This document shows positions 12,497-64,000 of a stretch of 64,000 bases of DNA, piece by piece. Source of the DNA: Raillietiella orientalis. Lineage: Eukaryota. The notes below the pieces were generated by a model. The model was not told where the DNA came from. It made no database searches and saw nothing but the letters and a program-made list of their open reading frames with translations. Positions within the stretch are counted from its first letter, which is position 1. The number at the start of each line of letters is the position of its first letter. A program made the position numbers and the translations under genes. Location of the stretch: assembly GCA_036172245.1 (NCBI GenBank), contig JAYWIR010000009.1, positions 1,240,001-1,304,000 on the forward strand, in the 5' to 3' direction.

Positions 12497-12592
12497 CGTT
12501 CTAGGGAGCGGACGTGGTTTGGCATCGCTCCACGGATTGGTTAGTGGGAAGCTTTTCGTTGGTTGTCTGGTGTGTGGGAGCACCGGTGTCCC

Positions 12593-21765: not shown

Positions 21766-21989
21766 GCTCAGTCGCCTTCCTCGCCTACGATACTGCCCAT
21801 GCGTTAGCACCCACTTCGAACTGGTGCTGTGGTCGCACAGGTAAAATCCGAGTCGCCTGCCACGGGTATGCCGAGTTTTTGCTCCTGATATGCCAGGGCA
21901 TCTATAATTCAAATTTAACAAATAATATTTTATAATAAAGTCTATGAGTTTTTTTGATGCAGAAAACGTGGTTCCGGCTGTCCTTGTAA

Positions 21990-32600: not shown

Positions 32601-35127
32601 CGAGGATTTTCCATCCTTACGGAAAACCGCACCAACGGGTGATCCGACAACGTGGTGAGCGTGTCGCGAAAATCTTGAATGCGGTTCTCTAGTTCAGTGC
32701 TGTGAAGAACGTGGTCGATCGGCTTGTGGGTAGCTGTTCGCCACAGCAGCCCGAATCCGTCGGACAACCGTCGATACGCCGTCCTTTCCCTAGCGTCCTG
32801 AGAATGAGTGATTTCGTTCCGAATGTTGAGATCGCCAGCGACGATCACGACGTCCTTGGGCGCGACCTTTTGCCGGAGAGCTGCATGCAGCGCCTCCGCA
32901 CACCGATGTTTTAGTCTGTGTGGCCGTACACGCTCACCAGGAAGAGGTGAACGGTACCGGACCACGCCAGTCACACGCCGATGATGCGTCCCTGCAAGGG
33001 ACAGAAGACTTCCAGAATGGTGGGGGCCAGGTGGTTCTTGATCAAGACTGCCACACCTTCCGTGTTCCGCTGTCCTTTGCTGACGAACATCTGCCCATCG
33101 AAGCGTCGTTCCATTTGCTGTATGATCTGGAGACCCAACGTGTGGGTCTCCTGCAGGCACACGATGTCTTGTTGTGCGATGATCCGCACAATTCTTCTTC
33201 TTTGAACCTGGTTGATCAGACCGTTTACATTCCAGGAGGCGATGTTAATCCTCCTGGCGGTCGATAGAGACGAGGCCATAAAGGGGAAGACCTACTTCTT
33301 GGCCTTCCTGAATTTCTTTTGTCTGGGAGGTTGTGATCTCCCAGACGAAGAAGAAGCAGCGGGCTTCTCGCTGCCAGCGTCACTCTCCGTTTCGGTGAGG
33401 TCGGTAACATTGGCCTCCTCGGTGGAGTGCTCGGCTTGTGTGACGAGTTTACGTAGAAGTACTTCCAACGCCACACTAGCTCAGAAGTTTGCCTTCACGT
33501 CGAGAAGCTTGTCCTCCAGCTTCTCGCGCTCGGCAGTTTCCACCACCTAATTGATGGTTTCTTGCGCATTGAAGATCTTCTGCAGTTGTTCCTGCTGGGC
33601 TCCGCTCTGCGCCTCCGCCACTGCTTCTGCAAGTTGTTACACCACTTTGGTGGTCTGCAGGGCATCCTGCGACACCGGGGTGTGCTCTGGCGTTCTCGCC
33701 ACCTCGCCTTCCTCAGTGACTTCCATCCTGTCGGCCTCCTCTGCCACTACTTCCGGGATAAGAGGAGTTTCCTGCTCCTTGACGAGCATCTTCCTCTTCC
33801 CCTTCTTAACAACTTCTACGAAACCGTCCGCCGAGACCGGATCGGCCTCTTTCACCTTCCTCTGATTTACTGGTTTTTGAGGTTTCACAACCTCCGCCAA
33901 TACCCTCTCCCGCACGGGGGATTGGCCACTCATGGTCCGGTAGTTGGCAAACTCCGGACAGCACCACTTTGCATGTCCTGGCTGCTTGCAAAATGAGCAG
34001 ACTTCGGGCATGTCGCAGCCACGCACCTGGTGTCCCTGCTTCCCACATCGGAAGCATCGAGACCTGGGGCAGGCGTCCATTCGGTGCCCAAAGTTTTTGC
34101 AGCCGGTGCAAAAGACCGGCTGCTACCTATATCAAACGGAGACCTCTTAACAGTCTTCGTCGATATGCACAATCCCAGGAATCCGTGCCTCCCCGTTCAA
34201 TTTCATCTTGGCGATGACTTCTCCCGAAAATATGTTTCCGGAATTTTACTTCCAGACCTCACCATATTTGGACAGAGAGTCCCATACCGTCTCCTGCTCA
34301 GTGATGATGCCTATACCGCTCAAAAAGACAGTCGTGTACGGCATTTCGCCGATACCACGCACCATCCTTCCCTGTAGGTTAATGATCTTCTCAATTAGGA
34401 CCTCTCGCAAATGTTCACTATCTGTATATATTGTGAAACCCGATGTACTCGGGATGATCGCCTGAAGGCGGTCGAAGTCCACATTTGCCTTGAATAAGGC
34501 CAAATACACTTCTTTAATGTTATTGAACCGAATCAGTCCGGTTTTTAAAACAATCGGTTTTGATACCAGGCTAATCCAGACAATATGTTCTTTCCATCTA
34601 GTGATGTTCCCTCTCTCGGGCATTCCAAATTTTCTATTTGGCTGGGCACTAGCCTGGCCAGCCGTCACCGCCGCGTACGAAAAAGGCTGCACCACCGCAG
34701 CCGAACAAGCTGGCGTCGCGTTTCTGCACCCCGTGAGCCACGCGGACGCCCGCGGGTCCCGCCTGGGATTCCGCCGTCGCCGCGGGAGTGACCGTTGTCG
34801 CCGCGGGCGCGATCCTTGGCGTCGCCGCCACCTCGCCAATGCCGTACGTTACCTCCATTGCCATGGGGACGTCGGCCTCTCCACTTCTCTTGCTTCCTGC
34901 ATCCTCGCGGCTAGCACGGCCGCTAGGGAAATTGGCAGGGCTTCCACCCTGGACTCCTCGGAGCTGCTGCTGCAGATGCTGAAGATGGTCCTTGGCTGCA
35001 CTGTCGCTTCCACACTAACTTTCACCTTCACTTGCCCTCTCGGGGCACGCAAAAATTGCCGCGGCAGTGATGTTACGCACTGCCTTGGCGGGGTATTGGG
35101 TAAAGTTTCCAAGTAGCAATAATCGCG
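29628..35127 (-). mobile_element. Full-length but disrupted Tx1-like family B element (ORF1, APE-RT-CCHC ORF2)
   Basis: ORF1 ends at 33292 and has three CCHC knuckles. ORF2 starts at 33279 (MASSLSTARRINIASWNVNGL) and includes DMEKAFD, GVRQGDSLSP, YAND and CTACGDIDTRLHDLTC, ending at 29761. Several stops and frameshifts. Confidence 0.9.
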
Positions 35128-35224
35128 CCTCCCTTTAGATCAGCGGCGGCTATACTGTACGTGCGCGAGGCTAACTGACAGTCCTCGTCTCAGCAGGAGA
35201 GGAGCGATCTCTACCTGACTCTGT

Positions 35225-38304: not shown

Positions 38305-41300
38305 AAGATGGCGGGGCGACCACGTGTTGCGCATATGGCAAACTCTTACCGCGCGCAGCGTAGCTGCAGTTGCGCCTGCACCCCCAACGCCGTGCTCGCA
38401 TGCACTCCCGTACCTGCGTGCTTGCTCGTTTGTGGAAAATTCCCCGTTGCCCCGGTTACATGAGAGCAACCACTCCTTGAAACCATGGAAGTTCAAAAAC
38501 AAACTTTGGAACCCGCCTTTTTAGACGCCGACCATGGTTTATACAGTTGCATTTCGCTTCCACGTCCTTGCCCATGCCCTATTCCTGACTGTAAATTTGC
38601 ATCCTCAGCCGAAGAAAGGCACAATCGTTCCCGTAACCTGAAGCACCATCTGAAACGTATACGTGGTGTAACTCCCCAAAATTCCACTTGCTTTTGCGCC
38701 CGATGCGAATTTACGAGGGACCTGTTCCACTATTCCCCCGACTCTCATAAATGTACCCACTCAATTCGAAATGTGGAGCTTCCTCGTCTCCTGAAAAAAC
38801 TTATATATCCGTGCTCGTCCTGTGCATCTAGCTTCCACCGTTAAAAAACCTCTACGCAAAAGCGGACAACACACGACACATCAAGAACCAAGAAATCGTT
38901 ACTATACGAAGTCTTTGACGAAGAACCTGGCACTAGTAACTTGACAACGCACGAACACCCCATTGAAGACCAATCAGCGACTGTCAGCGAAATATCAAGC
39001 ACCTACCAACCACCTCTCGATGCGACTCCTCAACGTCAACCTGACAACAATGTGATTCCCGACCCACAACTTGTAACAACGCCTGGACTGCAGGAAGCAA
39101 TTGCAATTTTCCACCAACACAAAGATGCATTGCAACCTTTGCCTGCCGAAATTCTCTCAATGACTGATTCTTCCATCCCTGTGCAACTGGAAACACATCA
39201 CGATGCCCAATCACCCCTGGATTCGCGTCAAATGAATTCTACCTTGTCCTCTTCTTCACTGACATTTGCTGATGTTGAAAATCAGCATCGCGTGATGCTC
39301 GCGAAAATTCACGCCCCTAATGCGTCTTCTCAACGCTCCCCGCCCATCACCCAAACCTCCCTTACCATAAGCGGCAGTAGATCTCCAGTTAACCTGTGAT
39401 CCCTCGGGAACATTCCCGTATCGGCTGAAAGATCATGCCTTGTGGAGAATGCTTCACCCACCATGCATAGCACCACACAATCAATTTCTGCTCCAATACT
39501 TGACAGAAAATACGATCCTTTACGTCCCACCTCGCAACCATTGCATACTTCTGCTTCCTTGTCCCCTACATCTATACAGCGCAAAGGACCCTCTCCAAAA
39601 TACAACCACAACCAATACCACCTAGATTCCGTCGATCTCATCGTCAGTGTGTAAAGACCCCACCTCTAAATCGCGCCCTTGCTACCTCTATTGTGTCCTC
39701 ACCCCCCCACTTCCCGTCCTACTACCCACCCACTCACGGTCATTCCACTTCCGCCTATAGCCAACAACGATGTAGCTCTTACATCTAACAACGTCCTTTT
39801 AGTGCTATTTCCCGTATCCCTTACCCTAAGCTGCATAATACCTTTCTGTCCCTGGCGAACACAAACTCTCGATGCCAGCAACACGCTTCCATCTCTCAAA
39901 CGCCACTTGACCACTGCACACAAGCTACCTTTTCACAAGCACAAGTTGTGAGAAATCCAACTCGGATGTCTCCTATCCTACACACCACCACCCATGCTTT
40001 AAACACATCGCTCCCCCGCAGCTTCCCGTGGCACTCCTTTCCTTCGAATGCAGCATTCCCAACTGTAAAGTCACCTTTCCCTTAATACGTGGATTACACA
40101 GTCATACTCGATGGCACATGTGACTGCAAAATCAACGCAAGAAACCACTTCCTAAACCACGTGCTCCTCCTTCGATACCCACATTCAACCGTTTTGCTGC
40201 AGTAGCAACACACGAACCCGTTACACCTACAGCCCTAGAAATGACGGATCCCTTACCCACAGCAAACTGTTTTGACAGCCCCTAAACCTCTAAAAGTACC
40301 ATCACACTCCCGTTTCCCGAACCTCACAACAGGACGCGCCACTCATACATCTAACTTACCCTTATCCTTTGCACAAATCCAACGAACCCGCATCGAGTAA
40401 CCCTGAAGTACAACAGTTACTGCCCAATTTTCAGCATATATTACACACAAACACATTCTGTGCTCAGTGCTTACACCCCGAGTCTCACATCTCTCCTAAC
40501 ACAACCAAAGTGCAACGACAATTGGCAACGTACCATTGATATTCTCAACAAAGTCATGAATACGATGACTTCTACATTCAACATACGTCCCTTCAACCCT
40601 TCTAGAAGACACTGCTTCCTACAATGCTTTCGCCTGACCTCACCAAAGCATCTCCAAACCTTGTATCGACGCAACAGAAAGAGAGCCATCCGCACCCTTC
40701 TGAACCCCAATCTCATCCAAATCATCAGCTCTATCGACAGTTAAAACCATCTTTGGTGAGAAATTCTCAACAAAGAATATTAATACCGAAATTCTTCAGA
40801 AAAGCCCCTTAACTCCAGCTTCTTGGGAAGTTAATTGCACGAACATTACCCCTCAGGAAGTTGTGTCCACATTACTTAACGCTCAGGACACTACCACTAG
40901 AAATGACGGAATCCCCTACTCCTTCCTCCTAAAAGCTGATCCAGACGTATCTTGTCTTGCGGCCCTTTACAATGTTTGTATCCACCACTTGCTAATCCCT
41001 TAAGACTGGAAGAGTTCACGTACAGTTCCAATTCCAAAATGTGGAGCATCTGACCCCACGGACGTAACAAAATTTCGTCCCATCGCCATCTCCAACACCA
41101 TGGGCAGACTGTTCTGTAAAATCATCGCGAAACGGTCGCGAACGTGGATCCTGAACAATGGAATCGTTGGACATCATTAGAAGGGATTTCTTCCTTATGA
41201 TGGTGTTTTAGAACAAAACTTTGTCCTGACCACTCTAGTCGAGCGCTCCCGGGTATACCACAATGACAATGCCATCGTGTGGATAGACTTTAAAGACGCG

Positions 41301-42487
41301 TTTTTCTCCATCCCCACCATCTCATCCTAGACAGGTTGACTTTACTAGGGGCTGGTCATCAATTTCATTGTATCATCTCCGAAATGTATTCGGAATCTAC
41401 AACAATTGTAAAATCCGAAGCATCTACCTACCCAATTCCAATCCGTTCCGGAGTACTCCAAGGGTGCCCGCTGAGTGGTTTATTATTTAACATCGCGCTC
41501 GAACCCTTTATCAAAATTCTGAAGCACCACCACCCCTCTATCATTCCACTTGCATATGCAGATGATGTAGCGCTCATAGCAAGCTCTATAGACGAGCTAC
41601 AACTTGCCATCACCACACTTGCAGGTGCAACCCGTGCTGCAAACTTACAAATCAACCCCAATAAATGCGGCTCGTATTACTACGTAGCCTCCCCAACGCA
41701 TATGCAAAATACATCGCTGCCTGTGAATGGTGCACCAATTCCGTCGCCTTCCCTCCAAGAAACATAGCTATCTAGAAAAACCGATTGGTTTTGACCCCCT
41801 TATGCATGACGGAAACGTAGATACATTCATTACGCGCTTCAAAATTATTGCAGACTCCTCGTTAGCTCCATGGCAGAAACTAGATGCAATTAAAACCTTT
41901 TTCCTGCTATCTTGAGTACACGACTTACGCCTCGGTACAAAACACATATCGTCTTGGGCCAAGATCGACAAAATAATACGGAATGCATAACGTCATGTTT
42001 ACCCATTATGTCGAACTTTGAGGATGATAATGTGACTCTCTGCTTGTCCTTTCCTGAACATGAAAACCCTAAAATTCTATCGTTCCCGCAACGTAGACAA
42101 GTAGCACAAACGATACTTGCTCACTTTAGAGAGCAAAAACGATTATCAGCTCAAGCCAAGCCAGACCAAGGTAAGACAATGGAATGTGTATCCCTTCACT
42201 AAGCCTCCATGTCATTCCTGCCCTCATGTGAAGGATTCCGATGTGCAGACTGGCGTTTTGTACACAGCGCCCGCCTAAAGCAATTATTTCTTAATGAAAA
42301 TCGAAAAACACGTGGTGACCTTGAACAATGCCCAAAATGTAGCTACATAAAGGAAACATTGGTCCATTTCCTGTGTCATTGTCCAATCCAACTTGGAACA
42401 ACGATCACTCGAAGACATGACTTTGTTGTCGACAAACTGTACAAGATTCTCTCCCCTCGATGGCTCGTTGCTCAGAAAGATCGACCA
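38305..42487 (+). mobile_element. Decayed RLE-type non-LTR retrotransposon, NeSL clade (Utopia-like)
   Basis: Multiple N-terminal zinc fingers (CPIPDC..HLKRI, CARC, CPW..HLTTAH). RT motifs FRPIAISNT, KGFLPYDGV, GVLQGCPLSGLLFN, AYADD. Then SLAPWQKLDAIKTF, KPDQGKTMECVS, DWRFVHSARL, CPKCSYIKETLVHFLCHC and RRHD. Truncated before the PD..D nuclease core. Confidence 0.8.
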
Positions 42488-45003
42488 GTCTTTCACGATG
42501 GACGGGATCCTCTCGACCATCGGAAAGCTCAAGAAACGCAAGGCTCCAGGGGAGGATGGCCTGCCCGCGGAGTTTTATCGAACTTTCGCGGCTGAGCTTA
42601 CCCCTCTGGTACAACAACTCACCTTGCTGATACGGAAGACAGGTGACGTTCCCGCCTCGTTTCGTTCGGCAAAGGTGCGGCTCCTCCCTAAGGGAGGAGA
42701 TCAGAGGAGCATGAGCAACTGGCGTCCTATCACAATAGTGAATGCGGACGCCAAGTTGTTAGCGGAGGTTTGGGCAGAGCGTTTGGAATGGGTTGCAAAC
42801 ACCTTCATCATCCCGGAACAGACATATGCTGTTCCCGGGCGGAGCATGGAGGCAAACCTGTTCCACGCTTCCACCTGGCTAGAGCTCCAACAGGAAAGGG
42901 GCTTGGTGCGCAGCCGGAATTGCGGTGAGCCCGCCCGCAACGAGTCGGATGGTCGGGTGGGGAAGCGAGCCCTTGCGGTCGCAGTCGACTTGCACAAAGT
43001 ATTCGATTGCGTGAACCAGAATTTCCTGTTGGAGTTTCTGGAACGCTTGGGCTTCCCGGCCTCATTATTGGCCTATCTCGCCCCAGCTGGCGCGATGCGC
43101 TAATCAATCTTTCTTTCAACGGGCAGACCGTGCACGGTGTACCGGTGCGACGCATAATACGGCAGGGAGACAGCCTTAGTCCCTTACTCTTTAGCATCTA
43201 CTTCGAGTTGGTGTTGAGAGCGTACAGGGCGACTTTGTCTTGCCGAGCTCGTGCCCCAGCACGCCCGCAGTAGCAGCTTACGCCGACGACCTTCTGCTTT
43301 TGCTCCTTATGTCCTCTCCGGCAGCGGCAGTCGAGGATTTCTTCGATCTGCTAAGCCGCGGAACGGGACTGCTAGTGAACAAGGCAAAGTCGTCGGTGGT
43401 GGCGGTTGGTACGACGTAGGTTGGACGGCCTGACTGGATCCGCTTGGGGATCCCCACGGACAGGTACCTGAAGTACCTTGGCGTTCCGTTGGGGGACTTC
43501 TGCCCGTCAGAAGCCTGGTCAGGTCGTCTCCAAAAAGTGAAGTCGGCGATCGGCCCGTTCCTAGAAGGCAAGTTCCTTCTTCCGGAACGGGCCGCGGTGT
43601 GGAACGCGTTCGCGGCTCTTATCCATCTCCCTCTGCTTTTTTTTGCCCCATTCCCCCCCAGTTGAAGAATAGGACATAGGACCTACTCCGCATCGCCCTC
43701 TGGAGCAAGGGGAGGCCTAGAGTGCCTCTGAAGGACTTATGCGTGCCTCGCTTCGAAATTGTGGAGCGCCCCTTGGTGCATTCCCGCCCACCTTGCCAGC
43801 CGTGTCTCCAGGACGCAAGGACTAGCGTCTTATCTTCTGTGCTCCGGCCGGAAGATACGAAGATGCGGCCTGCTCCTTGGACGCATGTCCACCTTGGCAA
43901 AGGAGAACGGCTGGGTGGTCTGCAGCCCCGCCAACTCCTTCGCATGGCTGGAGGAGACCGCTGGCACGTGGGTGAAGATAAATGAGAAGAACCACGAGAC
44001 ATGGAACTGCCTGCTAGTCGGCATCTACGCCCGCCGCACTCTGCGTGAAATTCTTCAATTTCCAGCAGTTGCTTGTGGGCGGAAGGGACACCCCTTGCTA
44101 CGGCGATACCCTTCCTCCGGAGGGCGCTTCACAACAGCCGGAAGCCGAAGTGGCAAGTCTGCTGCCGTATCGCAGGCAGAGAGATGATGAGCGGCTGGAC
44201 CATGCGAGAGCTGACAGACGCTACGATCCCTAGTGTCCAGCCCAGAGGACTAAAAAGATGGGGCGAGCTTCTTGGCATCCGGTCGGATGACCTGAAGTGG
44301 TCCCCGGTTTTGATTGGATCCAGGATTCTTCCCCTGAAGTGGCAAGAGTTGGCGCTTCTGTGGCTGCATTGGGGTCTACCCTGCAACGCGCGCCGCTTCC
44401 ACTGGACGCGGGGAAGAGTAAATCCTGCATTTGCCAGGTGTGGGGAACGAGAGTCCCTTCCCCACCTCATAGTTGACTGCCCTGCCCTCCGGATTCGTCG
44501 GGATCGTCTTGGAACGGCCCTTGGGATACCGGTTGGTGGCAACCCCAGAGACGTTTACAGTCTTCTCTTCGTGCGGGACGCCCTAAATCCAGCCGCAGCC
44601 TTGGCAGCACTTTGCTGCATCCGTGGTATTGTGTCGGCCTGGAGTGATGCCGAAGATGAAGATTGCAACGTAACGGACGTCATCCCGTATGCTGTTCGCT
44701 TCCTGTAGAGAGCTACCGGATGGCTCCAGTTGGGCAGAATGAAGGAAGACCTCGAGGGCATCTTGCAAAGGATGGGCCCAATTCTCAGTGGAATGCGATC
44801 CCTTCCCGTCCCTCCAAACACTTTTTGTTTTTGTTTTTCTTATTTTATTTTTATTTTTGTTTTTTCCCCCATCCCCATCCAATGCCGAGGGGAGTCACAC
44901 CGTCCCGGCAGGTCCGGTGTTGTGTGGCCGTTAGTGGGGCATTGTACCACGTATGTTGTTGACCAATGCGAGGTTTTAATAAACGTCCCGGCGTACCCGT
45001 GAG
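42488..45003 (+). mobile_element. 5'-truncated Tx1-like family A element
   Basis: KLKKRKAPGEDGLPAEFY, NWRPIT, QGDSLSP, YADD, RCGERESLPHLIVDC. Conserved 3' UTR. Confidence 0.9.
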
Positions 45004-45093
45004 GCATCGGCGAAACCTGGTTTGGGCGGGCGTGTTTTTTGGTCGCTCCGTCAGCGACTGTCTGGGAAGCGAGTTCCCGTCTTTTTGTAAGGT

Positions 45094-45128
45094 ATCGCTT
45101 CTCAGCCTTTTGGCTAAGATCAAAGTGT
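45094..45128 (+). pseudogene. U2: 3'-truncated U2 snRNA fragment (first 35 nt)
   Basis: atcgcttctcagccttttggctaagatcaaagtgt matches the U2 5' end with one G>A change. It starts exactly at U2 nt 1 and stops inside the branch-point recognition sequence GUGUAGUA. Confidence 0.88.
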
Positions 45129-45834
45129 GTGGTGTGGATCGCTGGTGTCCGATGGCAACCTTGCCGGAGGACACCGCGATGGTGGTTGGCGTGGGGGAGG
45201 CAATTCCTCCCACACCACCTGCATAGTTGGGGGCATCTGCCCCAGGATCCTCTTCGCAGCCTGCGAGGAGCTGAAGCGCCATAGTGCCGCGCCTAGCGCG
45301 GAAACCATGGCAGAGATGGCTGCCTATAAGGACTATGGATACAAGCCTTCGCTTGTATACAAGGTAGGTCCCTTATACGAAGGCCAGACGGCACGCTCTT
45401 TTAGTAGGGCGTTGCAGGAATTAAACGTACGTGAAGATCTTGATGGTCTCACCGTGTTCAGAGGAGCGCAGCGAGTAGAGGTGGTATGCAAGGAGTTCAC
45501 CTTGTCTCAGCGCTTAATTAATACACCGCTGGTCATGGACGGCCGCAAGATCTTGCTGGTGACGATGAACCGCTCCTTCGTGGGCCATCTCACTGGCATC
45601 ACTAACCGCATGACGCGGTCTTCGGTTAGTGATGAACTCATGAAATATGGCGACGTACATGCACTCTGGCCTAATCCCACTGTTTTTGAGGGCTATAATG
45701 GCCTTTTCGGGGGCCAGGCTGCGGCGCGTCACCGTAAAAGAGGATGGTGGGCTCCCCCACAAACTGGAGGTCGGAGAGTCGATCGACCTCTGGTACGTGG
45801 GGCAGCCTCGGTATTGCGGTTACTGCAATGTAGT

Positions 45835-46807
45835 TTTTTTTTTTTCTTCTGTATTCGCTGTTTTCCTTCCAGCTTTTTTTTTTAAGAGTTTTCTTTTTTT
45901 TTGTTTGCTAAGTACCTCAGAGCCGATCGTGTGCCTCGCGGCGCACATGGTTCTTTTTAAACATCAACACACTGTTTTGTTTCCACGCCCCTTCGCCCGC
46001 GGCAACCCGCAGGGGGGAACCAGTAATTCTTCAGTGTAATATTCTTCAGGATAGGGGGCACCCCGGGATGGGGTCCGCCCTATGAATCCAGGAAGGGCTC
46101 GGAGTCCGTTCTCTCGCACCTCCCACCCTGGTTGTCTCCGAAGGGGAACCCCGAAGGGAATCTCCCCTTCCTCATTCTCTCCTGAGGGACCCCCTGGGAG
46201 GGGAGTGGTCGTCTCCATTTCAACTTCTCCGAAGGGAACCCGGAAAGGATCCGCTTGTATGAATTTCTTCTCCGGAGGGAACCCGCAAGGGAACCTCTCC
46301 TGTTCACTCCTCTGAAGAGAACCCCGAAGGGACGCTTCCGAAACTCAGAAGGGGCGCTGCAGCTTCCCGCGGGGAATCGCTCTCGCTTGCTTCCTTGTGC
46401 ACACTCTGTGAAGAGGCGACGACTCGGCGGGACCCCCAACAGGGGGTCCGCTCCTTTGAACAACTGGAGAGGTGCCCCTGAGGCCTCCTGCTCCATCTTG
46501 AAACCGGAGGTGGTCCCCCGGTGATGGGGGTCCGCTCTCCGTTGCACGACAGGTGGGGGAACTCCCCACTCCTTTATTCCTGGGAGGACCCGAAGGTCGA
46601 CTCCCATTGTTCCGGCCTTCATCAGGAGGCTGCCGGCTTTTTGCACCACCGGGGCCACGCCCGAATGTCTCGGCCAACCAGCGCCGTTGCAGGAGAAATT
46701 CGGAACCCAAACGAGGCAGTGGCGTCAAGTTATCTGCCAAAGTATTCGAACCCGCGACGCATGGTGCCACGTGCGGAAGCCTTAACCACAAAGCCTCCGA
46801 CGCGGGC
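45835..46807 (-). mobile_element. ~1-kb tRNA-derived SINE, copy 2
   Basis: TSD aatgtagt at 45827-45834 and 46808-46815. It splits an ORF1 zinc knuckle. The head starts GCCCGCGTCGGAGGC. Confidence 0.9.
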
Positions 46808-49800
46808 AATGTAGTAGGACACATTCGTAAGTGGTGTCCGAACATTCAGTGCCACCTGTGCGGAGAAAAGGGCCACGTTCGCCACGTGTCCCCTAAGCGC
46901 CCCTGCTCGGTTCCCCCTGCCGCCAAAAAAGCGCAGGGGAAACGGGCAAGTAAGGTCGTAAGACCAACTGTGGAAAATGGCCGGCACAAACTCCCGGCGC
47001 CTCAACCTCCGAAAGAGACGTCGGAGGATAAACCTTCTGAAGTGGTGGAAGGCGAAGAGGGCTGGCAGTTGTAAAGGCCAGGAAGGAAAAGAAGGTTCCA
47101 ACCGTGGAAAAAGAGAAGGAGAAAAAGCCGGCCGGTAAGAAGAAAAAAGCTGCGCCGCGCTTCAAAACTCTCCGTGAGTGCTCGGTGGGGGTAGGAGCAT
47201 ATGATGGGGTGAGGGCAGCAGAACGGCTGCAGCTATAGCATATTTTAGGAATGGTTCCTCAACATGAGATTACATTGCCCGTCCCGAGGGAGCTTCCCGT
47301 GAAGAAACAACAGCTTAGTATCTCTTCCTGCTCACGCAGTGGAAGCACTGCATTGCTGGTCGGTGGTTGCGGGATCTCGAGCTCCGTTATAAGGTTCTGG
47401 AGGTTTCGTCGTGAGAGCATCCGTGAGCTCCCCCGTGGTCCACTGATCTAGGGGTCGCGCGGCCCCTGCTGTGTTGCAAATATTCCCATGTTGCCTTTGT
47501 CTTCCCTCCGTAGAGCGTTGAGAGTGGCAGCTAAAGAGATAGCAGCTACGACCTTTCTCTTAGGAGGGTCACTCATGGAACGTTTGAGGGACTCTTCTCA
47601 TATTTTCCAAATAGCAAACGTCTTCAGGTAGTGTCAGTTGGATCCAGGGATCTATCTTTTTCTGTAGGTGGAGATCTTAGTTTGTGGGGCAGCAGTAGAT
47701 CCGGAATCACCTATTTCCTCAAGGAGAAACTGAGAGAATGCAGCATTGCTGTTTCGGAACCCGCACAACCAACTGCATTCTTTAGCATACATTTGACTGG
47801 CAGAGACTAAGGCACCATAGTCTGCGTGAGACTCAATTTGATGAATCCTTTTGAGTTTCAGAAGGTTCAGCCCTGCCTTCTAGCTCTAGGAAATGCTTTC
47901 CGAAAGGATTCATGACATGGAGATGTCCCATGGTTTGCAGCAGGTCATTCGACCCCTGATGGCCGATGAGATAGTTATGTGGCTCCACAATGCTTGATTT
48001 AATAGCTCCAAACATTTGTCTATATGAAAGATACTAATTCTGTCACAGGTCTTTAGTAAGTGCCCACCGGAACCACAAACCTCACTCCATGACCACATCA
48101 AATGTATCGGAGATCACAAAAATCGAAATCGATTGCACCTAAGGGTGTTCATCTAAATGGGAGAAACAAAAGCATCCTTGCAAACTGAAAGCATGAATCT
48201 CATTGATTCAAAGAGTCACTGCTGTCAACTTTATAACTCTATTATCTAAAGCATTTTTTTGTTCGACTTTTGGGACGGATCCATTATCGATAAACAATTA
48301 TACATTGCTTCAAAAAATGGTAGTTAAATAACTTCACTAAAACACTGGAACAATACAACGTGAAAAAAATTTTGCAAAAAGAGCAAAATCAAATTATCAT
48401 TAAGTAACGTTAGCATGGATTATTCCTAAAGTTAGTTTAATCATTCTTAATTAATCATTTGATCTGTGACTTGAAAATGCTAAACTTAAAGCTCAGTTAC
48501 CAAGTGCTGATGGTCATCTCCCTTCATAGAGTCTTATGTCTTCATTACAAATATGTAATGCATGCTTTCGAAATCAAGTCAGGAAGCCTCTTAGAAACTG
48601 ACTAATTGCAAGTAATTTTCACAACTTTCCAAGTCACCTTACAAAACACTCGAACGTCTGAAGCAGCTGAGAACGAATGTTTCCATGACAGCAGGACGGG
48701 ATGCGAGAACCTCAGCTTTTAGCCAGTCTGCATTTCTTAGTCTTTTCTCCCTTGTTCTCCGTTCTCCTGAAATTTCGTGTCACATGTACTTCTTCTACAA
48801 TTTGCAAATTACAAAGTGAAAGCACACCTTTTCCGTGGACTGCAGCAGATGATCGATGGATTTCAGAAGCTGCGGCTTCTCTGTTTTACGGAGAATGCTC
48901 TTGAGACCACATGCCCAGTGGTAGATATCAATTTCTAACTGGAGATTCACAGTCTCAGTTACAGCCGGTCCGTCCTCCTTTCCGGTTTGCAGCTCCAACT
49001 GGCACAGTACTGTACTTCCAATAGACTTGAACCGCTTTTGCATGCAGACCCGGGGCCGAGTTCGAGTACGTCACCCTTAGGCAGTTCTCGACTGATAAAA
49101 GTGCTTTAAAAAATGAATGCAGCAAACTGAATCCGCTCACGCATTAGTCTACCGAAGCAAAGGTGCCACCGAACAACTGCGATGACCGTCGAGCCGCTTC
49201 CTCGGTGTTGATTTTTAGCACTTTCTCATTCATTATCTCCGATCCGTCACGAACTGGTCGATAAACAAAATGGTCTCGAAAGTCATTCAAATCGCCATGC
49301 AACCGTCAGTGTGCACACATTCAGCTTTTTGCCGCTTTTTCGCGATCACTGCGCGGCTTTTTCTTTTTTTTCGCAAACGCTGCCGCTTTCGCTCTCGAGG
49401 AGAAACTCAACACGTTCATTCATCACCACTCACCATACAAGGAGGAAATCTCAGTTCAAGTACCCTACTTACAATGAAACATGTGCTAGATTATAAAGAT
49501 TAATGTATGCTTCTCACTGGGATCCATGAATGGAATACAAAGATATGTGATGCTCCGGATTCTGGATAACAAGCTGGAAAAACTTTACAGCAGAACCTTT
49601 CCAATATTTTTTTTTTTTTTTTTTTTTTTTTTGTGGCTATTTATGTGTGTGTGTTTTTTTTTTTTTCTCTCAAGAATGAATTGAATAACTTTGCGCTCTT
49701 GTGTCTTTTTTTTTTTTTTAGAGCTCTCTTTATAGGGCTATTACTCTCCTTTTGGGGAGTAATGCCTCTTAAACTCTTGCATTTTTTTTTCACTTTTTCT

Positions 49801-49873: not shown

Positions 49874-52800
49874 CTATCGCCTCCAGCTGCGATCTTCAGC
49901 TTCCTCCTCCTCTTCCTCATCAAAAATATCCTCACTGAGCAACTCCTCTTCCAAAGTCTACAACACAATTAATACGATTTGATTTCCCAAATCATGTTAC
50001 CTCATCCACTGGCCCATCATCCACTGTAGGTTGCTGAATATTGTTAGCATTCTCTACAAACCAGCAAATGGAGAGAAAGCGTCCCTTAAAAATGGCACCC
50101 TGACTCAATGCTACTTCAGCATCTTTCCTTGTTTTGTAATGAAATATCGCACTGGTATCTTGGCATGTATGCTCTTCCAATTCACCAAAATGCTACCCAT
50201 CTCCATTAATACACTATTAGTTAAGCTTTCAATTACCATAAAATGATCTAGTGCATCCAGCATCTCATTAGGCTCAAGTCCAGTAACCAAAATTTTGCGA
50301 GGTCTCTTGTCAAGAGATGCTGACTGTGGAGGGACGAAAGGTTTGGAAGTTGGTCGGGCTTTAGCACCATGCCAGTGTTTGTTCTTCAGCTTAGATGCAA
50401 CTGGAGTCCCAGGAATCACACCCAGAAATTTTGCTTGGCGTTTGAGTAGCATAACCCGATGCTGCAATTCGGTAATGTCGCCTCCTTCTTTCTGGCATGT
50501 ATATAAATCCAGCTCTGCATCCAGAAGCTCCTTTTCGGCCTGAATTGAAGCATACTTTATTCTGTTTCTCGAATTTGCCTAACCTCCTTCCTAGTCCTTG
50601 CCAATGGTTTCTGAGTAGCCATTTCCAAACGTAAAGATTCTACACTTTCTTGTAAAGATCGGATGGTAGCCATAATCAGTTTCTTTTCATCGGCCTTCAT
50701 GGTAGCTTTGTTGCGCTCAACTTTTAAGATCAACAACTTTTGCTGCTGAATTTGCTTTTCAAGGAGTTCTTGCTTCCTCTTTTGAATGCTGACTCGCATA
50801 CGCACTGCCTCCTTTTTCCGTTCTTCTTGCTTTTTTTTCAAGGTTTCCTTCACTGCCAAATATTCCTGGTTCTTGTAAATAGCTTCCAAATTCTGGAGAC
50901 AGCTTGGATGTACATGGTAAATCTGAGTAAAGTACAAACCTTTGCTTTCTCATCTTCCTCATTTGGTGAAGTTTTCAGCAATTCTGGATACACCACTGTT
51001 TTAGTCAGATTAGATTCATTGAAAAGTACCTAGGAATAATATCAGCTTAAATCGCAGCATGTACACCAACCTTTTCCTCGACATATTCTTTTTTCTCTGA
51101 GGGAATCTTGGAACTAAACACTTTATTGGGATTGGGAGCAGTTTTAATGCCTAAACGTTCCTTGACAGGAAGCTTAGATGCAACCACTACGTTGTCTTTC
51201 TGGGCTTCTTCTTCTTTATGCCAAAATACTTTGATGAAACGATTGTTGAGAACTGCTTCAGTGCTCTTGTAGGCTGCATTAGCTTCAGCATGACTAGAGA
51301 ACGTGACCAGTGCTCCCTCAGGATCATCTTGAAAATTTACTTGAATGTTCACAATTTTGCCAAACTTGCTGAAGTGATTATTTAAATGGCTGATATCATT
51401 CAGCCCTCTAGGCACTTTGCGCAACTCTAGACAACAGTTTTGTGGATCATAACGGCGGTTTCCACGAGAAACTTCCAAAGAAGCTCTTTTCCTTCCTTGG
51501 TCCACCATATGTCCATTACTGCATGTATCTGCATTGCGTTTGCCTTTTCGTGAGTTTCCAGAGTCCACCATGGGAATGTTAATAAGTTCTCGTTGCTGCA
51601 CAGAATAAGTCTGGTGTCCTGAAAATCAGATAGTACTGCATAACATGTCGATCTCACACTGTACCTTGAAAACGAGGGCGCACAACACGGGCATGGTTAT
51701 TATGCATGGGTGGCGGAGTGAAGCCCCAAGTATCCATGCTAGGAGTAGCAGGATTATATGGTTCTATTAAAATTATGAAATGAAATTATTTTTTCTGATT
51801 ATGTAAACTAACCTGGTGGAGGTCTCCTGATAGGGGGCATACCTACAATAGGATGTGGAGGTATACTTGGTGGAGGCACAGATGTTGGAGGAAGTGAATT
51901 TGCAGCTGGCTGTCCAGAAAAACCAAGCACCTGTGGGAGAGCAATGTCTTCAAGCACCACAGGATCAGTACCATGATCAAAAGGGCATAGGTCTCCTCTC
52001 ATGCAGTAACCTTTCTCTAAAAGAAAGCAATCGGTAACTTTCCTGTGCTCTTTTACCATCAAAATCACGACATCGCTTTTTCGAACTTCCTAAATATGGA
52101 GTCATTTCCATGACGGTGCCCTGCAAAACTGGAGGAGCCACTCTTAAATCCACATCACCATGACTGGGTTCAGGTGTTGGACCAGAGTTGGATGGATTCA
52201 GATGATAATTACGTCCAGGACCACGGAATCGATCTACACTGAAATTTCAACGAGTATTGCTAGGGTCTTTGTATCACCTGAAGAACGGGACCTAGTCCGA
52301 GATTTCCCTTGATGAAAAGAAGGAGAAGGACTAGAACGCAACTGGGAATGTGACTTGGAGCATGACCTAGATCTAGATCGGCTCTTCCAATCTCTGATGA
52401 TACTTTTGCTTGAGGCTAACTTTCCTTAAGATACCCTTCCCACCTGCGATCTCTCTCCCTTCTTCCTGCAGGTTTTCGTTTGCGTTCATCTCTTCCTCTT
52501 TCTTTATCTCTTTCTCTGTCTCGAGAACGATCTGCAAACTTTCGTTCTCTCTCTAAACTTCGGGAACGGGACTTTCTGCCATGAAATGTAGTAGCTTTGC
52601 TGCGACGCACATCTTTGTCAAAATGATTCTCTTTGTCCTGAAAAGAAAAACAAATTTCAACACTTAAAGCACTGTAATTTGTACTGACATTTTCCAGTTT
52701 TTTGGAAAGATGGCTGCAAGAGTCCATTTTTGTGTTTTGTCCATGAGAGGATGATGTAGAACAAATTGGAGGGGCTACAGGAGGCACAATGCCTGTTGAT

Positions 52801-55745
52801 GGCAATGTAGAAACTCCTTGTGGAAGCACACTTTCTTCAAGATAATTTTTTTTGACCAAAGTTTCAAAAAGTAAGTCCACAAAAGACTTAGTTTCTAAAA
52901 ACACAACACATGTTTCATTCAAAGTCAAAAAAATAAAAAAGCATAAATCTTATTTTAAAATGCAAATGAATTGAGCTATCTATTCACCAAATTTATCAAC
53001 TGTTTGGTCTAAAACCCATTAAAATTCTTTATTCTAGTAGCATTGTAATTAGCTATATAAAGGAAGACAATCTGCATTTAATATTTATATGCATGTGAAT
53101 GAAAATTCAATCATATACACAAAACAGAAAACATATTACAAAAGAATACATCATCGTTTCCATCGATCACGAGACCAAAATTAAAGTACCACTATTATTC
53201 TTATCCAAAAGGTTTTTGCCTATTCTAAGCATAAATTTGCCTAACTTCTCTCCACTGTAATTGACATATGCTTTAAACAAGTACCATAGTTATTTGAAAA
53301 CAAATTTGCAAAGTTACAATTTCAGAAACAGTTACCTTGTTGCAAGAAAACATCTAACTGATCAATACATGTGTTTTTCAATTCTGCTTCTGGTTTGTCT
53401 TTCTTGACTAATGCTATTACATACTTAGCCAATGCAGCTGGATCAGCATCACATCTGCATACATCATAAAATTTTACAAATACAATATACATATTATCAA
53501 TAGCACATGATGCAATGTTGTCTAATCCTAAAAGTTTATTTGATCATTTTCATGCTCTAATTCAATATCATACATCTAACAGACTCACTTTAGTAACATG
53601 ACATTTTATCATTTTATAGAATTTATTTTAATTCTTCTATCTGCACCAACGGAGGTTGTCAATGTAAAAATTTTCAAGGAAATATTCTTAATATAGAACT
53701 AATTCCGGGAACAGCACTGTAAGAAATTCTTTCAATCAAACATAATAAAGAATTTCAAAAAGTAAAAATAAAATAAAATAAAATAAAAATAAGAAGCAGT
53801 ACGATAATCAGCTATGCTGAAAAATACCACTGAGCTACTATTAATTATTCATCACACACAACAAATGACTGTATTAAACAATGTTAAGGATGAACAGTTT
53901 GAAAACTATTTTCTTCTATCAGAATTCAAGGTTAACAGCATATTCTTTTAATAAAATGGGTATGCACCAAGTTTTGCACTTAAACTTACTTATGATGCAA
54001 TCAGTTTCACTAAGAACCATAAAAAGAATACAACAAAAATGTTATCATAAACATGAATGCTGTTAACTAATGTTGTTGTTAATTGTCCATGAATCAGAAA
54101 CATGTACAAGTTTAAAAAACATATACAGCAATCATGAACTCAAATCTAGTGACAAAAATGCATATGCTCCATATGTACAAATTCCTAAATCGCTTTACAT
54201 TCCCACAAAATGGACATAAATTTACTATCCAATCGCAATAGTTAACAATGATAAGCTACCAAGCTAAGTCAGTTCAAATGTTCAAATGCTTTTCATATCT
54301 ACATCGTGCACCAATGGTCCCACTATTATTTTACTGATGATGAAATATTTTTTTTGTGCACCTTAAACAATGCGAATTATTTCTAACTACATCACGTGAG
54401 TAACAACTACTGATTCAACATGCATTTAATCCACATGATATTGTTGCTTGTACAAAATTGGGAAATAATCGCAAAATAAAATGCCTATTCTGAGAAGTGC
54501 TTAGGACATAAAATGAAATGAACTGAAAACGCCATTTTAAACATGAAAATTTGATTTCTATGCCACAAGAAATTACAAACCTGATATTGAAGTTTTTTCA
54601 CAAATTAAGGAAAAACATAAAAATTATTTTAATACTGATGGTGTGGAACCTCAAAACAAATGCAATACCTCAAAAATAAAACAGCCACCCCAAGAATTAC
54701 TCAAACATCCAACAAATTTGAACTGTTTTTGTTAATGCTGTTTTCCTTTTAACTATGACTATTTAAGTCCTGATGTGTTGAAGGAGGAATAAATTTCACT
54801 TACGTGTCTAATCTGCTCCTTTTAAATCGATAATTTTTATGTCATTCCATATGATGGTAACTTAACACGACTATACCTTATCAAATATCTATCTCATTTA
54901 CAGATTTTCACATATATATGAACACAACTGTACAAGGCATGAAAAGCACAAAGAACTTGCAACATATATGAGAGTAAAATATGTTGCAATATATTTAAAA
55001 TATGTTCTTGAATTTAAACCAGTTTATCAAAAGGCAGCTAATCCTTCAGCACTTGCTATTACAGATATCGACTTGGTACTATCATTTAAAAAAAGATTCT
55101 GGAAGTTCTCATACAAACATATAACTGACTGCAAACCAAGTGTTTATGCTAGGAAAAACAATCAAATTTTTATGCATTTTCTTCTTTGACAAAACCAAGT
55201 TTATACAAACACGCAACTTCTTCTCATGACACTAACTTCATGACATGCAACAGCTAATTATCCAAATTGAAATTTCTAAAGAAAAGACGGCGGTGTAACA
55301 ACTGAATTTAACGTGCAGGAGTCATTCATATATGAAATTTGTTTTACACAGTCTAAGTTTTCAAAGGTTCATGAAATCATATGGTATGAATATTTAAAGT
55401 TCTAAAAACGAGGAAACAATGCTACTATGGTGCTCAATAAAAAGGCATAAGCTAAAAATTGGTCACAGTGAATTACAAAATGGACACTAAACAACATGAT
55501 AGTGTCTGGACATTGTGTACAATACATGAACAAGTAATCTAAACAGGAATCAATTTAGAACAAATTTACTTTCTGCAAAGGAAACAAAGTTATCTAGAAT
55601 TTCACAGACTAACTAATAAAGATACGTTAAATGTATCCACTTGCAAGATTTCTTGTTAATTTCCAAAAAATATAAAATTTACTTACAGTGGTTCCAAGAC
55701 ACCAGTAAGCCAAACTTTTAAGGATTCTTGGTTCTCGATTAACAT
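49874..55745 (-). CDS. RBM26: RNA-binding protein 26/27 (PWI, CCCH zinc finger, RRMs; swm-like), 14 coding exons
   Basis: Exons read by hand with GT-AG boundaries: 55687-55745, 53336-53454, 52689-52894, 52444(or 52435)-52637, 52278-52393, 52057-52233, 51813-52016, 51665-51763, 51071-51618, 50940-51029, 50584-50892, 50237-50539, 50001-50192, 49874-49957. Motifs: MLIENQESLKVWL..LEPLCDADPAALAKYV..CIDQLDVFLQQETKSFV, RCRDFDEKGYCMRGDLCPFDHG, LNNHFSKFGKIVNIQV..EAVLNNRFIKVFW. The C-terminus is EDRSWRR. Confidence 0.95.
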
Positions 55746-62200: not shown

Positions 62201-62242
62201 TCACAAGGTGTTGGAGCTCCTGCAAGAAATGCAAATGCTTAT

Positions 62243-63269
62243 GCCCGCGTTGGAGGCCTTGTGGTTAAGGCTTCCTCATGTGGCACCGTGAGTCGCGGGT
62301 TCGAATACTCCGGCATGAAACTGACGCAACTGCGTCGTTGGGTTCCGAGTTTCTCCTGCAATGGCGCTGGTTGGCCGAGACATTCAGGCGTGGCACCGGT
62401 AGCGGTTCAAACCGGAAGCCCCCGATGAAGGCTGGAACAATGGGAGTCGACCTTCGGGCCTTCCAGGAATAAAGGAGTGGGGAGTTCCCCCTCCGGTCGT
62501 GCAACGGAGAGCAGACCCCCCTCCCCGGGGACCCCTCCGGTTTCAAGATGGAGCAGGAGCCTTCAAAGGCACCTCTCTGGTTGTTTAAAGGAGCGGATCC
62601 CCCTTTGTTGCGGGGGGGAACCCTGCGAGTCGCCTCCTCTCCAGAAAAGTGCAAGGAAGCAAGCGAGGGCGACCCTTCTGAGTTTCGGAAGCGTCCCTTC
62701 GGGGTTCTCTTCAGAGAGGTGAACAGGAGCGGTTCCCTTGCGGGTTCCCTCCGGAGAAGAAATTCCTACTAGCGGATCCTTTCCGGGTTCTCTTCGGAGA
62801 AGATGAAATGGAGAGGACTGCCCTCCCCATGAGGGGGGTGTCCCTCCGGAGAGAATGAGGAAGGAGATTCCCTTCGGGGTTCCCTTCGGAGACAACCAGG
62901 GTGGGAGGTGCGATCCTCCCCGTCCGGGGGGGATTCCTTCCCAAGCGTGAGAGGAACGGACTCTGAGCCCTTCCTGGATTCATAGGGCGGACCCCACCCC
63001 CATCCCGGGGTGCCATATCCTGATGGTTTTCGCAGGCGGAGAGGCGTGGAAACAAAGCAGTGTGTTTAAAAAAAAGGGCCACGTGCGCCGCGAGGCACGC
63101 GACCGGCACTTAGTGAACCAAAAAAAAGAAAACCGAAGAAAAAGCACACACACACAAAAAAAAAGAAAACCCGAAGACATGGCAGAAAAACCCTAGGATT
63201 CCCATCATCAATAGTAACGATCTCCTCGCGGGATCGCTACTGGCCTTAAAAAAAAAAAGAAAAGAAAAG
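62243..63269 (+). mobile_element. ~1-kb tRNA-derived SINE, copy 3
   Basis: 10-bp TSD aaatgcttat at 62233-62242 and 63270-63279. A/B-box-like head, terminal hairpin and A-rich tail. Confidence 0.92.
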
Positions 63270-64000
63270 AAATGCTTATCGACTGGGTGATAAACTGCTA
63301 TGTGGTATGTGGTGGTTTTACTTCTCGGGACAGGGTGGGGCCCGAGCTGTGAACATCATCGCTCAATTTTCTAATTCGCTGGACTTTTATCGTGTGGATC
63401 TAGAAGAGGAGGCATTCGTGCTCAAGAAAGTGAACACCACAAGGCGTTTGTGGAATCCAAGATGTGGGCATCATTAATGGACATCTGAAACTTCATTTCA
63501 GATGCCAGCAGCGATACACATCACAAGTTGCATCTGCTAGGACAAGTAGGAACGGACGCTGTGCGATATATGGAGCAAAAATCTGATGATGACCGTTCCA
63601 TGCAATGATTTTTTACTCCGTGCATTGCTCCATGTATCTACAGAATTTCGTATATCTTTCGAAAGTCTTGTGCAGATCCGAAAAACAAGTGGACTTGGTT
63701 CAAGCTTGCAACGGAAACAACCTGAGCAAAGATGAGCAACCACGGATCTCTGTGAGGTGGTTCCAGCAGGTGAAGGAGACGCGCCTCCTTGGAGATACGT
63801 GCCTCCTTCACGCCTGTTAACGAAGAGGCTGCCTGGGTAGCTGAGCGAGCTCAGCAGCCTCATCTCAGTCGGTTGGGCGTGCCCACTTCTATTGCAGGGA
63901 TAATAAGGCAAATGGGAGCATCACCTGAAAAAACGTCTGCCCCATTGCAAAATCCGAGTTCTTCCTGCCATCCCTTCATCAGGTGATTACGACACCGGCA

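What the first reader, a model, noticed from the sequence alone, without database searches (positions are those of the whole stretch)
45094..45128. First 35 nt of U2 snRNA embedded in a Tx1-like 5' UTR
Seen: U2 nt 1-35 lie ~25 nt upstream of the ORF1 ATG. Removing them makes this UTR collinear with the family A UTR at 12500-12595, which lacks them. There is no TSD or poly(A), only gtgt microhomology at the 3' end. Known: 3'-truncated U2 retrocopies are described in mammals. Keno (Tx1 clade) and Utopia (NeSL clade) both target U2 genes near this region (exact site recalled, needs checking). A Utopia-like element lies ~2.6 kb upstream. Inference: this is either a one-off capture of a cleaved U2 RNA, or a subfamily carrying a U2 piece (stem I/U6-pairing region) in its transcript.
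Basis: partly seen in the sequence, partly recalled or inferred. Interest (0 to 1): 0.75.

Follow-up and report, generated by a model that had tools for sequence, protein, structure and literature searches.

The report
Tailless U2 retrocopy inside dead LINE
The first 35 bases of the U2 splicing RNA sit as a single insertion in the leader of a broken LINE jumping gene; it is one of hundreds of such scattered U2 stubs in this non-vertebrate animal genome, likely pasted in by a LINE reverse transcriptase, a by-product well known from mammals.

Summary
Confirmed: 45094-45128 is U2 nt 1-35 (34/35), 23 nt before the ORF1 ATG of a broken L1-group LINE. It is a one-off. 0 of 29 other family copies carry it, and the junction occurs once in the genome. 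The genome holds 283 exact matches to U2 nt 13-28. Of 148 examined, 33 have strong 8-19-bp target-site duplications (0.75 in shuffled controls). Almost all have unrelated flanks, none has the U2 gene's upstream flank, and the U2 match ends mostly at nt 34-37. These are tailless U2 retropseudogenes, as in mammals, where the commonest length is also 35. The window copy itself has at most a 2-bp duplication. The subfamily idea and a link to the Utopia-like element upstream are not supported. The wider point is modest. The host is not a vertebrate, yet the estimated density (~260 per Gb) matches human (233). The cut-off at nt 37-38 is sharper than in human and lies in the range of the junctions at this genome's four interrupted U2 gene loci. 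Earlier scan notes reported single tailless U2 copies elsewhere in this genome.

The parts
45094..45128 (+). U2 snRNA nt 1-35, tailless 3'-truncated copy (one CpG-type change at nt 11)
   Evidence: Rfam RF00004; comparison with 148 genomic U2 heads
45092..45093 (+). Left copy of a possible 2-bp target duplication (GT); the right copy coincides with U2 nt 34-35 (45127-45128). Equally readable as a blunt insertion
   Evidence: Empty-site comparison with L034/L217 and L060/L218
45007..45151 (+). 5' UTR of the host L1-group LINE copy, split by the insert
   Evidence: Alignment with 29 family copies and the 12.5-kb UTR
45152..45829 (+). Host ORF1, first part; stop at codon 25 and frame changes
   Evidence: translate; tblastn with the 12593 ORF1, about 58% identity
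45835..46808 (.). Unrelated ~970-bp repeat interrupting host ORF1 (other copies near 2600-3590 and 62240-63270)
   Evidence: window self-BLAST
46808..47089 (+). Host ORF1, second part (zinc-knuckle region); no ORF2 match follows
   Evidence: tblastn; Pfam zf-CCHC weak, E 6e-4, below cut-off; self-BLAST
42524..45006 (+). 3' half (RT to tail) of a related LINE lying head-to-tail before the host copy; the same tandem junction occurs in other family loci
   Evidence: self-BLAST; RVT_1; alignment rows L032, L039, L052, L054, L057
41294..42523 (+). Decayed RLE-type (Utopia-like) element, RT to endonuclease region, cut off by the LINE at 42524; no link to the insert shown
   Evidence: RVT_1; 38% identity, E 8e-14, to the U2-flanked Utopia of L005
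12500..14311 (+). Reference relative: UTR without U2 plus open 572-aa ORF1 (ATG 12593)

Best explanation
This is a single dead copy of U2 snRNA nt 1-35 sitting in the 5' UTR of one broken LINE copy, most likely made when a LINE reverse transcriptase working in trans primed on U2 RNA at its branch-point-pairing segment and copied back to the RNA's 5' end. SHOWN: identity to U2; start at U2 +1; no tail; single-copy junction; empty sites in relatives; a genome-wide class of such heads with target duplications and 3' microhomology. INFERRED: target-primed reverse transcription; an APE-type L1/Tx1-group enzyme as driver (7-19-bp duplications, no fixed target); priming by 1-5 nt of pairing between the nicked target strand and U2 nt 33-37; insertion after the host copy had integrated. 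The source RNA is most likely ordinary U2 snRNA primed in the exposed branchpoint-interacting stem-loop region (about 65%), otherwise U2-headed transcripts of interrupted U2 genes (about 25%). The insert has no apparent function.
For: 283 exact matches to U2 nt 13-28, against 0 for the reversed control and 25 for nt 40-56. In the first 100 listed matches, 58 start at nt 1-2; exact ends are 34 (28), 35 (11), 36 (11), 37 (18), 38 (1), 28-33 (31), none beyond 38. 148 non-duplicate heads: flanks unrelated apart from one trio sharing both flanks (L193/195/200) and one short Utopia-tail match; none has the U2 gene upstream flank (one weak 4-edit hit, L164). Duplication score >=8 in 33 of 148 vs 0.75 in flank-swapped controls, lengths 8-19; scoring only bases outside the insert, >=7 in 22 of 148 vs 0.2. 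3' microhomology >=2 nt in 8 of 19 such copies, P 9e-6 against chance. Human tailless U2 copies: modal length 35 in 119 rows of Table S2 of PMC5322556. Host: 0 of 29 family copies carry U2; junction unique; ORF1 broken; family RT closest to L1 ORF2p among solved structures, E 1e-25 vs 4e-9 for R2. 19 of 30 compared UTRs hold the 7-mer equal to U2 nt 32-38 in this region, a ready priming patch.
Against: The window copy has no duplication longer than 2 bp, so it fails the >=8-bp filter of Noll et al.; 115 of 148 heads also score below 8. The responsible enzyme was not identified. Long truncations common in human (24 of 119 at >=41 nt) are nearly absent here (2 of 100; Fisher P 1.4e-5; methods differ), which plain internal priming does not explain. 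3 of 148 heads (L083, L113, L125) continue into Utopia-type tails, so not all heads are head-only insertions. Two duplicate family copies (L045, L046) begin at this same UTR position, so the spot may be a break hot spot.
Confidence: 0.85

Rival explanations
1. Template switch during LINE integration: a LINE cDNA that had reached 23 nt upstream of the ATG jumped onto U2 RNA, gained a U2 head, and landed at the matching position of another family copy's UTR.
For: U2 heads on LINE or Utopia pieces exist in this genome (L083, L113, L233, L240, L254) and in crocodilian Tx1-11_Crp (PMC4494074). The family forms tandem arrays, and L045/L046 start at this position.
Against: It needs base-exact collinearity by coincidence: deleting the 35 nt gives the empty site of L034/L217 with no gain or loss. 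Both sides align to the same relatives (L037, L038, L060, L032).
Confidence: 0.07
2. A LINE subfamily carries the U2 piece in its transcript, for example as a structural or regulatory module.
For: The 35 nt fold into U2 stem I (z -2.7). Tx1 families with snRNA heads are published.
Against: 0 of 29 copies carry it. The junction pattern with up to 2 mismatches finds only the window and one unrelated head on C28. The host is broken. Published heads are at the 5' end, not inside the UTR. No special fold of the whole UTR (z -0.3).
Confidence: 0.03
3. The 35 nt are the left-behind 5' flank of a U2 gene into which a Keno-like or Utopia element inserted.
For: At the four true U2 loci the head ends at nt 33, 36, 38, 38. 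Utopia is abundant here: the top 30 Rfam U2 hits all lack the U2 head at the junction, and several abut RLE ORFs.
Against: Upstream of the insert is LINE UTR, not the >=160-bp flank shared by the four true U2 loci. No U2 3' part exists in the window. The host family's copies are not U2-flanked at their 5' ends. The Utopia-like element lies upstream, the reverse of head-element-tail order.
Confidence: 0.03
4. Assembly or library artefact (chimeric read).
For: No reads could be examined.
Against: The copy has a CpG-type substitution of the kind common among genomic heads. Hundreds of similar inserts carry target duplications.
Confidence: 0.02

Closest known systems
Tailless U2 retropseudogenes of therian mammals (Noll et al. 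2015, PMC5322556; Schmitz et al. 2004 and Van Arsdell et al. 1981 as cited there and in PMC4494074)
   Same: 5'-complete, 3'-truncated near nt 33-37, no A-tail, dispersed, target duplications, short 3' complementarity to the target; similar density (about 260 per Gb estimated here; 233 human, 241 mouse).
   Different: The host is not a vertebrate (Noll et al. screened vertebrates and three plants only). Targets are not A-rich TT/WAAAA sites; duplications often begin with U2-like GT/TG/AG. Almost no ends beyond nt 38. The window copy lacks a long duplication.
U1/U2 heads of crocodilian Tx1-Mar families and SINEU (Kojima 2015, PMC4494074)
   Same: A short U2 5' piece joined to a Tx1/L1-group element.
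   Different: Those heads form the 5' terminus and are fixed in family consensus sequences; here the piece is internal to the UTR and single-copy.
Utopia (RLE) and Keno (Tx1 clade, APE), U2-gene-targeting non-LTR retrotransposons (Kojima and Jurka 2015, PMC4640811)
   Same: They split U2 near the same region; Utopia-type elements are abundant in this genome.
   Different: They leave U2 nt 39 onward (local nt 40) at their 3' end and sit in U2 genes; neither holds for the host LINE or this insert.

Membership tests
Tailless retropseudogene (Noll et al. 2015) | 5'-complete copy of a cellular RNA, >=30 nt, 3'-truncated | tested here: met
   U2 nt 1-35, 34/35
Tailless retropseudogene (Noll et al. 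2015) | No oligo(A) tail | tested here: met
   Sequence after 45128 is LINE UTR
Tailless retropseudogene (Noll et al. 2015) | Flanking target duplication of 8-35 nt (their filter for perfect cases) | tested here: not met
   Window copy: 0-2 bp. Met by its class: 33 of 148 heads; 19 of 99 pass a Noll-like filter. The copy works like the class but would not pass the strict filter.
Tailless retropseudogene (Noll et al. 2015) | 3' end complementary to the target (2-18 nt) | tested here: inconclusive
   Window copy: 2 nt at most, within a GT repeat. Class: >=2 nt in 8 of 19, P 9e-6.
Tailless retropseudogene (Noll et al. 2015) | Truncation in a single-stranded region of the source RNA | tested here: inconclusive
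   Ends fall within the BSL segment, nt 23-47, whose loop extends branch-pairing bases (PMC13019295 passages). The protein-free fold of L092 did not reproduce that stem-loop; the exact loop positions are recalled.
Tailless retropseudogene (Noll et al. 2015) | Mobilised by relaxed L1 machinery | not testable with these tools
   L1-group APE-RT elements are present; which enzyme acted is unknown.
Keno / Utopia target-site product | U2 nt 39 onward at the element's 3' end | tested here: not met
   No U2 3' part in the window; the neighbouring family tails end in an AATAAA plus hairpin tail
Keno / Utopia target-site product | U2 head still attached to the U2 gene upstream flank | tested here: not met
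   Flank of the four true loci is absent at 45094
snRNA-headed Tx1 family (Tx1-11_Crp type) | U2 piece shared by multiple copies at the 5' terminus | tested here: not met
   0 of 29 copies; internal position
Tx1 clade (host LINE) | Two ORFs: zinc-knuckle ORF1; APE plus RT ORF2 of the L1 group | tested here: met
   Shown on relatives in the window: Exo_endo_phos, RVT_1; best solved matches are L1 ORF2p
Tx1 clade (host LINE) | RT phylogeny placing it in Tx1 rather than L1 clade | not testable with these tools
   No clade-labelled references; named homologues are only 22-28% identical

The most novel reading that the evidence does not exclude
In this invertebrate the U2 stubs are fed by Utopia. 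All four assembled promoter-bearing U2 loci are interrupted, so their transcripts carry a U2 head that cannot run past nt 33-38. These chimeric or cleaved heads, rather than mature U2, would be the templates that LINE enzymes have pasted hundreds of times, at mammalian density, together with head-plus-Utopia-tail-plus-U2 composites. One target-specific element would thus supply the raw material for a SINEU-like repeat class.
Probability: 0.2. Interest if true: 0.55.

Novelty: new member of a known kind. Interest (0 to 1): 0.3.

Why it matters
The insert itself is genomic debris. The class it belongs to has modest value. Noll et al. (PMC5322556) tie tailless U2 copies to the relaxed L1 of therians, with some in Anolis and eight in maize, and did not screen invertebrates. 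A 210-Mb non-vertebrate genome with an estimated ~260 duplicated-site copies per Gb, ending at the same U2 positions, suggests that the U2 branch-pairing segment is a general priming hot spot for LINE enzymes and that relaxed trans-mobilisation is not special to mammals. The copies are also usable presence/absence markers and possible raw material for snRNA-headed SINEs. I found no paper on invertebrate tailless U2 copies in five searches; the library lacks most subscription and older papers.

Tried and rejected
Read support: no sequencing run was listed, so no reads were laid; this says nothing either way. Intact U2 gene: a junction-spanning pattern gave 2 hits, both fragments, and the top 30 of 46 Rfam hits lack the head; intact arrays are probably missing from the assembly. 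Looking 10 kb upstream of 12 U2-tail loci found no same-strand U2 head, so no full-length Utopia 5' junction came from there; it did expose one promoter-bearing locus on the other strand. Downstream flanks of the 148 heads against the inserts at the four true U2 loci: only L083 matched, through its U2 tail region; this gives no direct support for the Utopia-source idea. A recalled U1 5' motif found nothing; uninformative, so other snRNAs were not compared. Homologue search for the family RT gave no clade label. The RBM26/27-like gene near 50-53 kb was checked as a possible processed pseudogene and rejected: it keeps introns. The bioRxiv paper 10.1101/2025.02.02.635956 had no hit for four U2 terms apart from one reference title. 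Rows dropped: from 152 matches examined, L134 and L169 (segmental duplicates) and the second match in L143 were left out, giving 148 after L-id de-duplication; about 135 or more of the 283 matches were never fetched.

Full report
OBSERVATION. Window 45094-45128 is U2 snRNA nt 1-35. Rfam aligns it to RF00004 from model position 1, weakly only because the rest of U2 is absent (31.9 bits). Against the majority of this genome's U2 heads it has one change, G>A at nt 11 in a CpG; a 34/35 match has a chance of about 1e-14 in 64 kb. The organism's U2 has one more A than the Rfam consensus at nt 29-31, so local numbers past nt 30 are human numbers plus one. The ORF1 ATG is at 45152, 23 nt downstream. 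No A-tail follows.

HOST ELEMENT. A search of the own genome with 44990-45400 gave 46 matches from 40 scored of 608 candidates; 30 loci were fetched, one being the window. None of the other 29 holds the U2 piece in the aligned UTR; 28 align better once the 35 nt are removed and one, lacking that region, ties. The empty site is seen exactly in L034/L217 and with 2 mismatches in L060/L218. Deleting the 35 nt gives that site with no gain or loss, so the insertion is blunt or has a 2-bp GT duplication overlapping U2 nt 34-35. A pattern across the 3' junction with up to 2 mismatches finds only the window and one unrelated head on C28. The host ORF1 has a stop at codon 25 and frame changes, is split by a ~970-bp repeat (45835-46808), and is not followed by ORF2. 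Relatives in the window encode an APE and an RT whose best solved matches are L1 ORF2p (E 1e-25; R2 4e-9). That places the family in the L1 group; Tx1 versus L1 clade could not be tested. The 12.5-kb element is a diverged relative, about 58% identical in ORF1.

GENOME-WIDE CLASS. The genome (G000, 210 Mb) has 283 exact matches to U2 nt 13-28, 136 to nt 14-35, and 25 to nt 40-56. I examined 148 non-duplicate heads: the window, 89 and 58. Their flanks are unrelated apart from one trio sharing both flanks and one short match between two Utopia-type tails. Four loci share a >=160-bp GC-rich upstream flank and are taken as true U2 genes; that flank is absent from the 148 (one weak 4-edit hit). In the first 100 matches listed, an unbiased set, 58 start at nt 1-2 and exact ends are 28-33 (31 copies), 34 (28), 35 (11), 36 (11), 37 (18), 38 (1); with mismatches allowed, three run to 39, 44 and 61. 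Target duplications scoring >=8 occur in 33 of 148, against 0.75 per round when flanks are swapped; lengths are 8-19 bp. Scoring only bases outside the insert gives 22 of 148 at >=7 against 0.2. Among 19 of those whose duplication abuts the U2 end, 13 share >=1 nt and 8 share >=2 nt with the U2 3' end (P 8e-5 and 9e-6). 19 of 99 unbiased heads pass a filter modelled on Noll et al.; scaled to 283 this is about 54 copies, 258 per Gb, a rough lower bound because only exact 16-mer matches were counted. Against my reading: 115 of 148, the window included, score below 8, and 3 of 148 run on into Utopia-type tails.

MECHANISM. Start at U2 +1, no promoter flank, no tail, target duplications and 3' microhomology are the marks of target-primed reverse transcription of an RNA in trans (established for L1; PMC5322556, PMC2912911). 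I infer that a LINE endonuclease nicked the target, the free DNA end paired over a few bases with U2 nt 33-37, and cDNA ran to the cap. These bases belong to the branchpoint-interacting stem-loop (nt 23-47, with branch-pairing bases extending from its loop; PMC13019295 passages); my protein-free fold did not reproduce it. In this LINE family the UTR region often holds the 7-mer equal to U2 nt 32-38 (19 of 30 compared), which would favour priming there. The enzyme is unidentified; variable 7-19-bp duplications fit an APE-type L1/Tx1 enzyme better than arthropod Utopia, reported to make none.

KENO AND UTOPIA. PMC4640811 states that U2 sequence downstream of Utopia starts at nt 39 and that Keno's 3' flanks are identical; that is local nt 40. 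This genome agrees: 23 of 25 exact matches to nt 40-56 follow an A-rich element end, and several such elements end in an RLE ORF. The window insert ends at local nt 35, 4 nt short. The element at 41294-42523 resembles Utopia (38%, E 8e-14) but lies upstream, is cut by another LINE, and has no U2 flank in the window. No link is shown.

COMPARISON WITH MAMMALS. Noll et al. list 666 human tailless U2 copies (233 per Gb), mouse 241, dog 338, Anolis 61, maize 4, chicken and platypus 0 per Gb (file S1); no invertebrate was screened (Table S8). The hot spot is thus the same, and no Utopia is needed to explain it. The long tail is nearly missing here (2 of 100; P 1.4e-5), though lengths come from different methods. 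All four true U2 loci are interrupted, with heads ending at nt 33, 36, 38, 38, and head-insert-tail composites occur outside gene context (L083, L113, L233 with a 12-bp duplication, L240, L254). This keeps open that U2-headed transcripts of interrupted genes supply some templates. Against it, head-only copies show no shared downstream sequence and do not match the inserts at those loci. The host is not a vertebrate: a COX1 on contig C282 has 11 in-frame AGA codons, stops under the vertebrate mitochondrial code, and is open under table 5; this assumes the contig is the organism's own, which similar nuclear copies support.

WHAT I SAW OF THE PAPERS. PMC5322556: whole main text, supplementary files 4 and 5, part 4 of 10 of file 2 and search passages; figures not held. 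PMC4640811: parts 1-2 of 5; Fig. 1 alignments not visible. PMC4494074: passages and part 3 of 5. PMC2912911 and PMC13019295: passages. 10.1101/2025.02.02.635956: term search only; its supplements are closed. Keno's original paper and the 1981-1984 human U2 pseudogene papers were not read. Five searches for invertebrate or older tailless-U2 reports gave nothing specific.

EARLIER SCAN NOTES. Other windows of this genome yielded single U2 heads read as tailless copies or LINE chimeras. They are unchecked AI notes and not independent support; one pointed me to PMC4494074. None of those shown gave a genome-wide count.

VERDICT. Real, single-copy, non-functional. A new member of a known kind: it works like a tailless U2 retropseudogene, though this copy lacks the long duplication of the strict definition. 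Interest 0.3, resting on the class's abundance outside vertebrates and on the unexplained sharp cut-off.

Noticed in passing
window 21672-21810 (-) and 35034-35172 (-): Two U4 snRNA-like copies above the Rfam cut-off (79 and 75 bits) with divergent 5' ends; each is followed about 600-750 bp further on by a LINE ORF1 remnant on the same strand (20912-20466, 34410-34000). Fits earlier notes on U4-associated LINEs in this genome.
   Followed up: partly
L256-L259 (G000 C30, C389, C482): All four loci with the shared U2 upstream flank are interrupted at U2 nt 33-38; no intact U2 gene was found in the assembly.
   Followed up: partly
L083, L113, L125, L233, L240, L254: Composites of U2 head, 25-800 nt of Utopia-type 3' sequence and (most) a partial U2 3' part, away from the U2 promoter; L233 has a 12-bp duplication. 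SINEU-like raw material.
   Followed up: partly
L001-L030: Dispersed, decayed U2 3' parts with a shared ~60-nt trailer behind short element tails; 29 of 30 have no U2 head within 1.5 kb, which suggests read-through Utopia transcripts copied to new sites.
   Followed up: partly
L212:246-1586 (G000 C282): COX1 has 11 AGA codons, no AGG and no AGT; by recalled COX1 motifs about four AGA sit at usually glycine positions and the rest at serine positions. Could be lineage-specific substitutions, a nuclear copy or an unusual code.
   Followed up: no
window ~49900-53500 (-): RBM26/27-like gene (name from recalled motifs) with introns, several stops and frame changes; likely a duplicated pseudogene or assembly errors.
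   Followed up: partly
L143 and L150: L143 has two U2 heads in tandem separated by the same duplicated target; L150 has a second U2 head in reverse just upstream.
   Followed up: no
window 44978-45020; L032, L039, L052, L054, L057: The host family forms head-to-tail tandems with a constant junction (AATAAA, short hairpin, next 5' end); other copies start after a short shared motif, hinting at a target preference not identified here.
   Followed up: no
window 16342-17300 vs 18166-19125: A 960-bp inverted duplication, 97.8% identical, of LINE ORF2 sequence.
   Followed up: no
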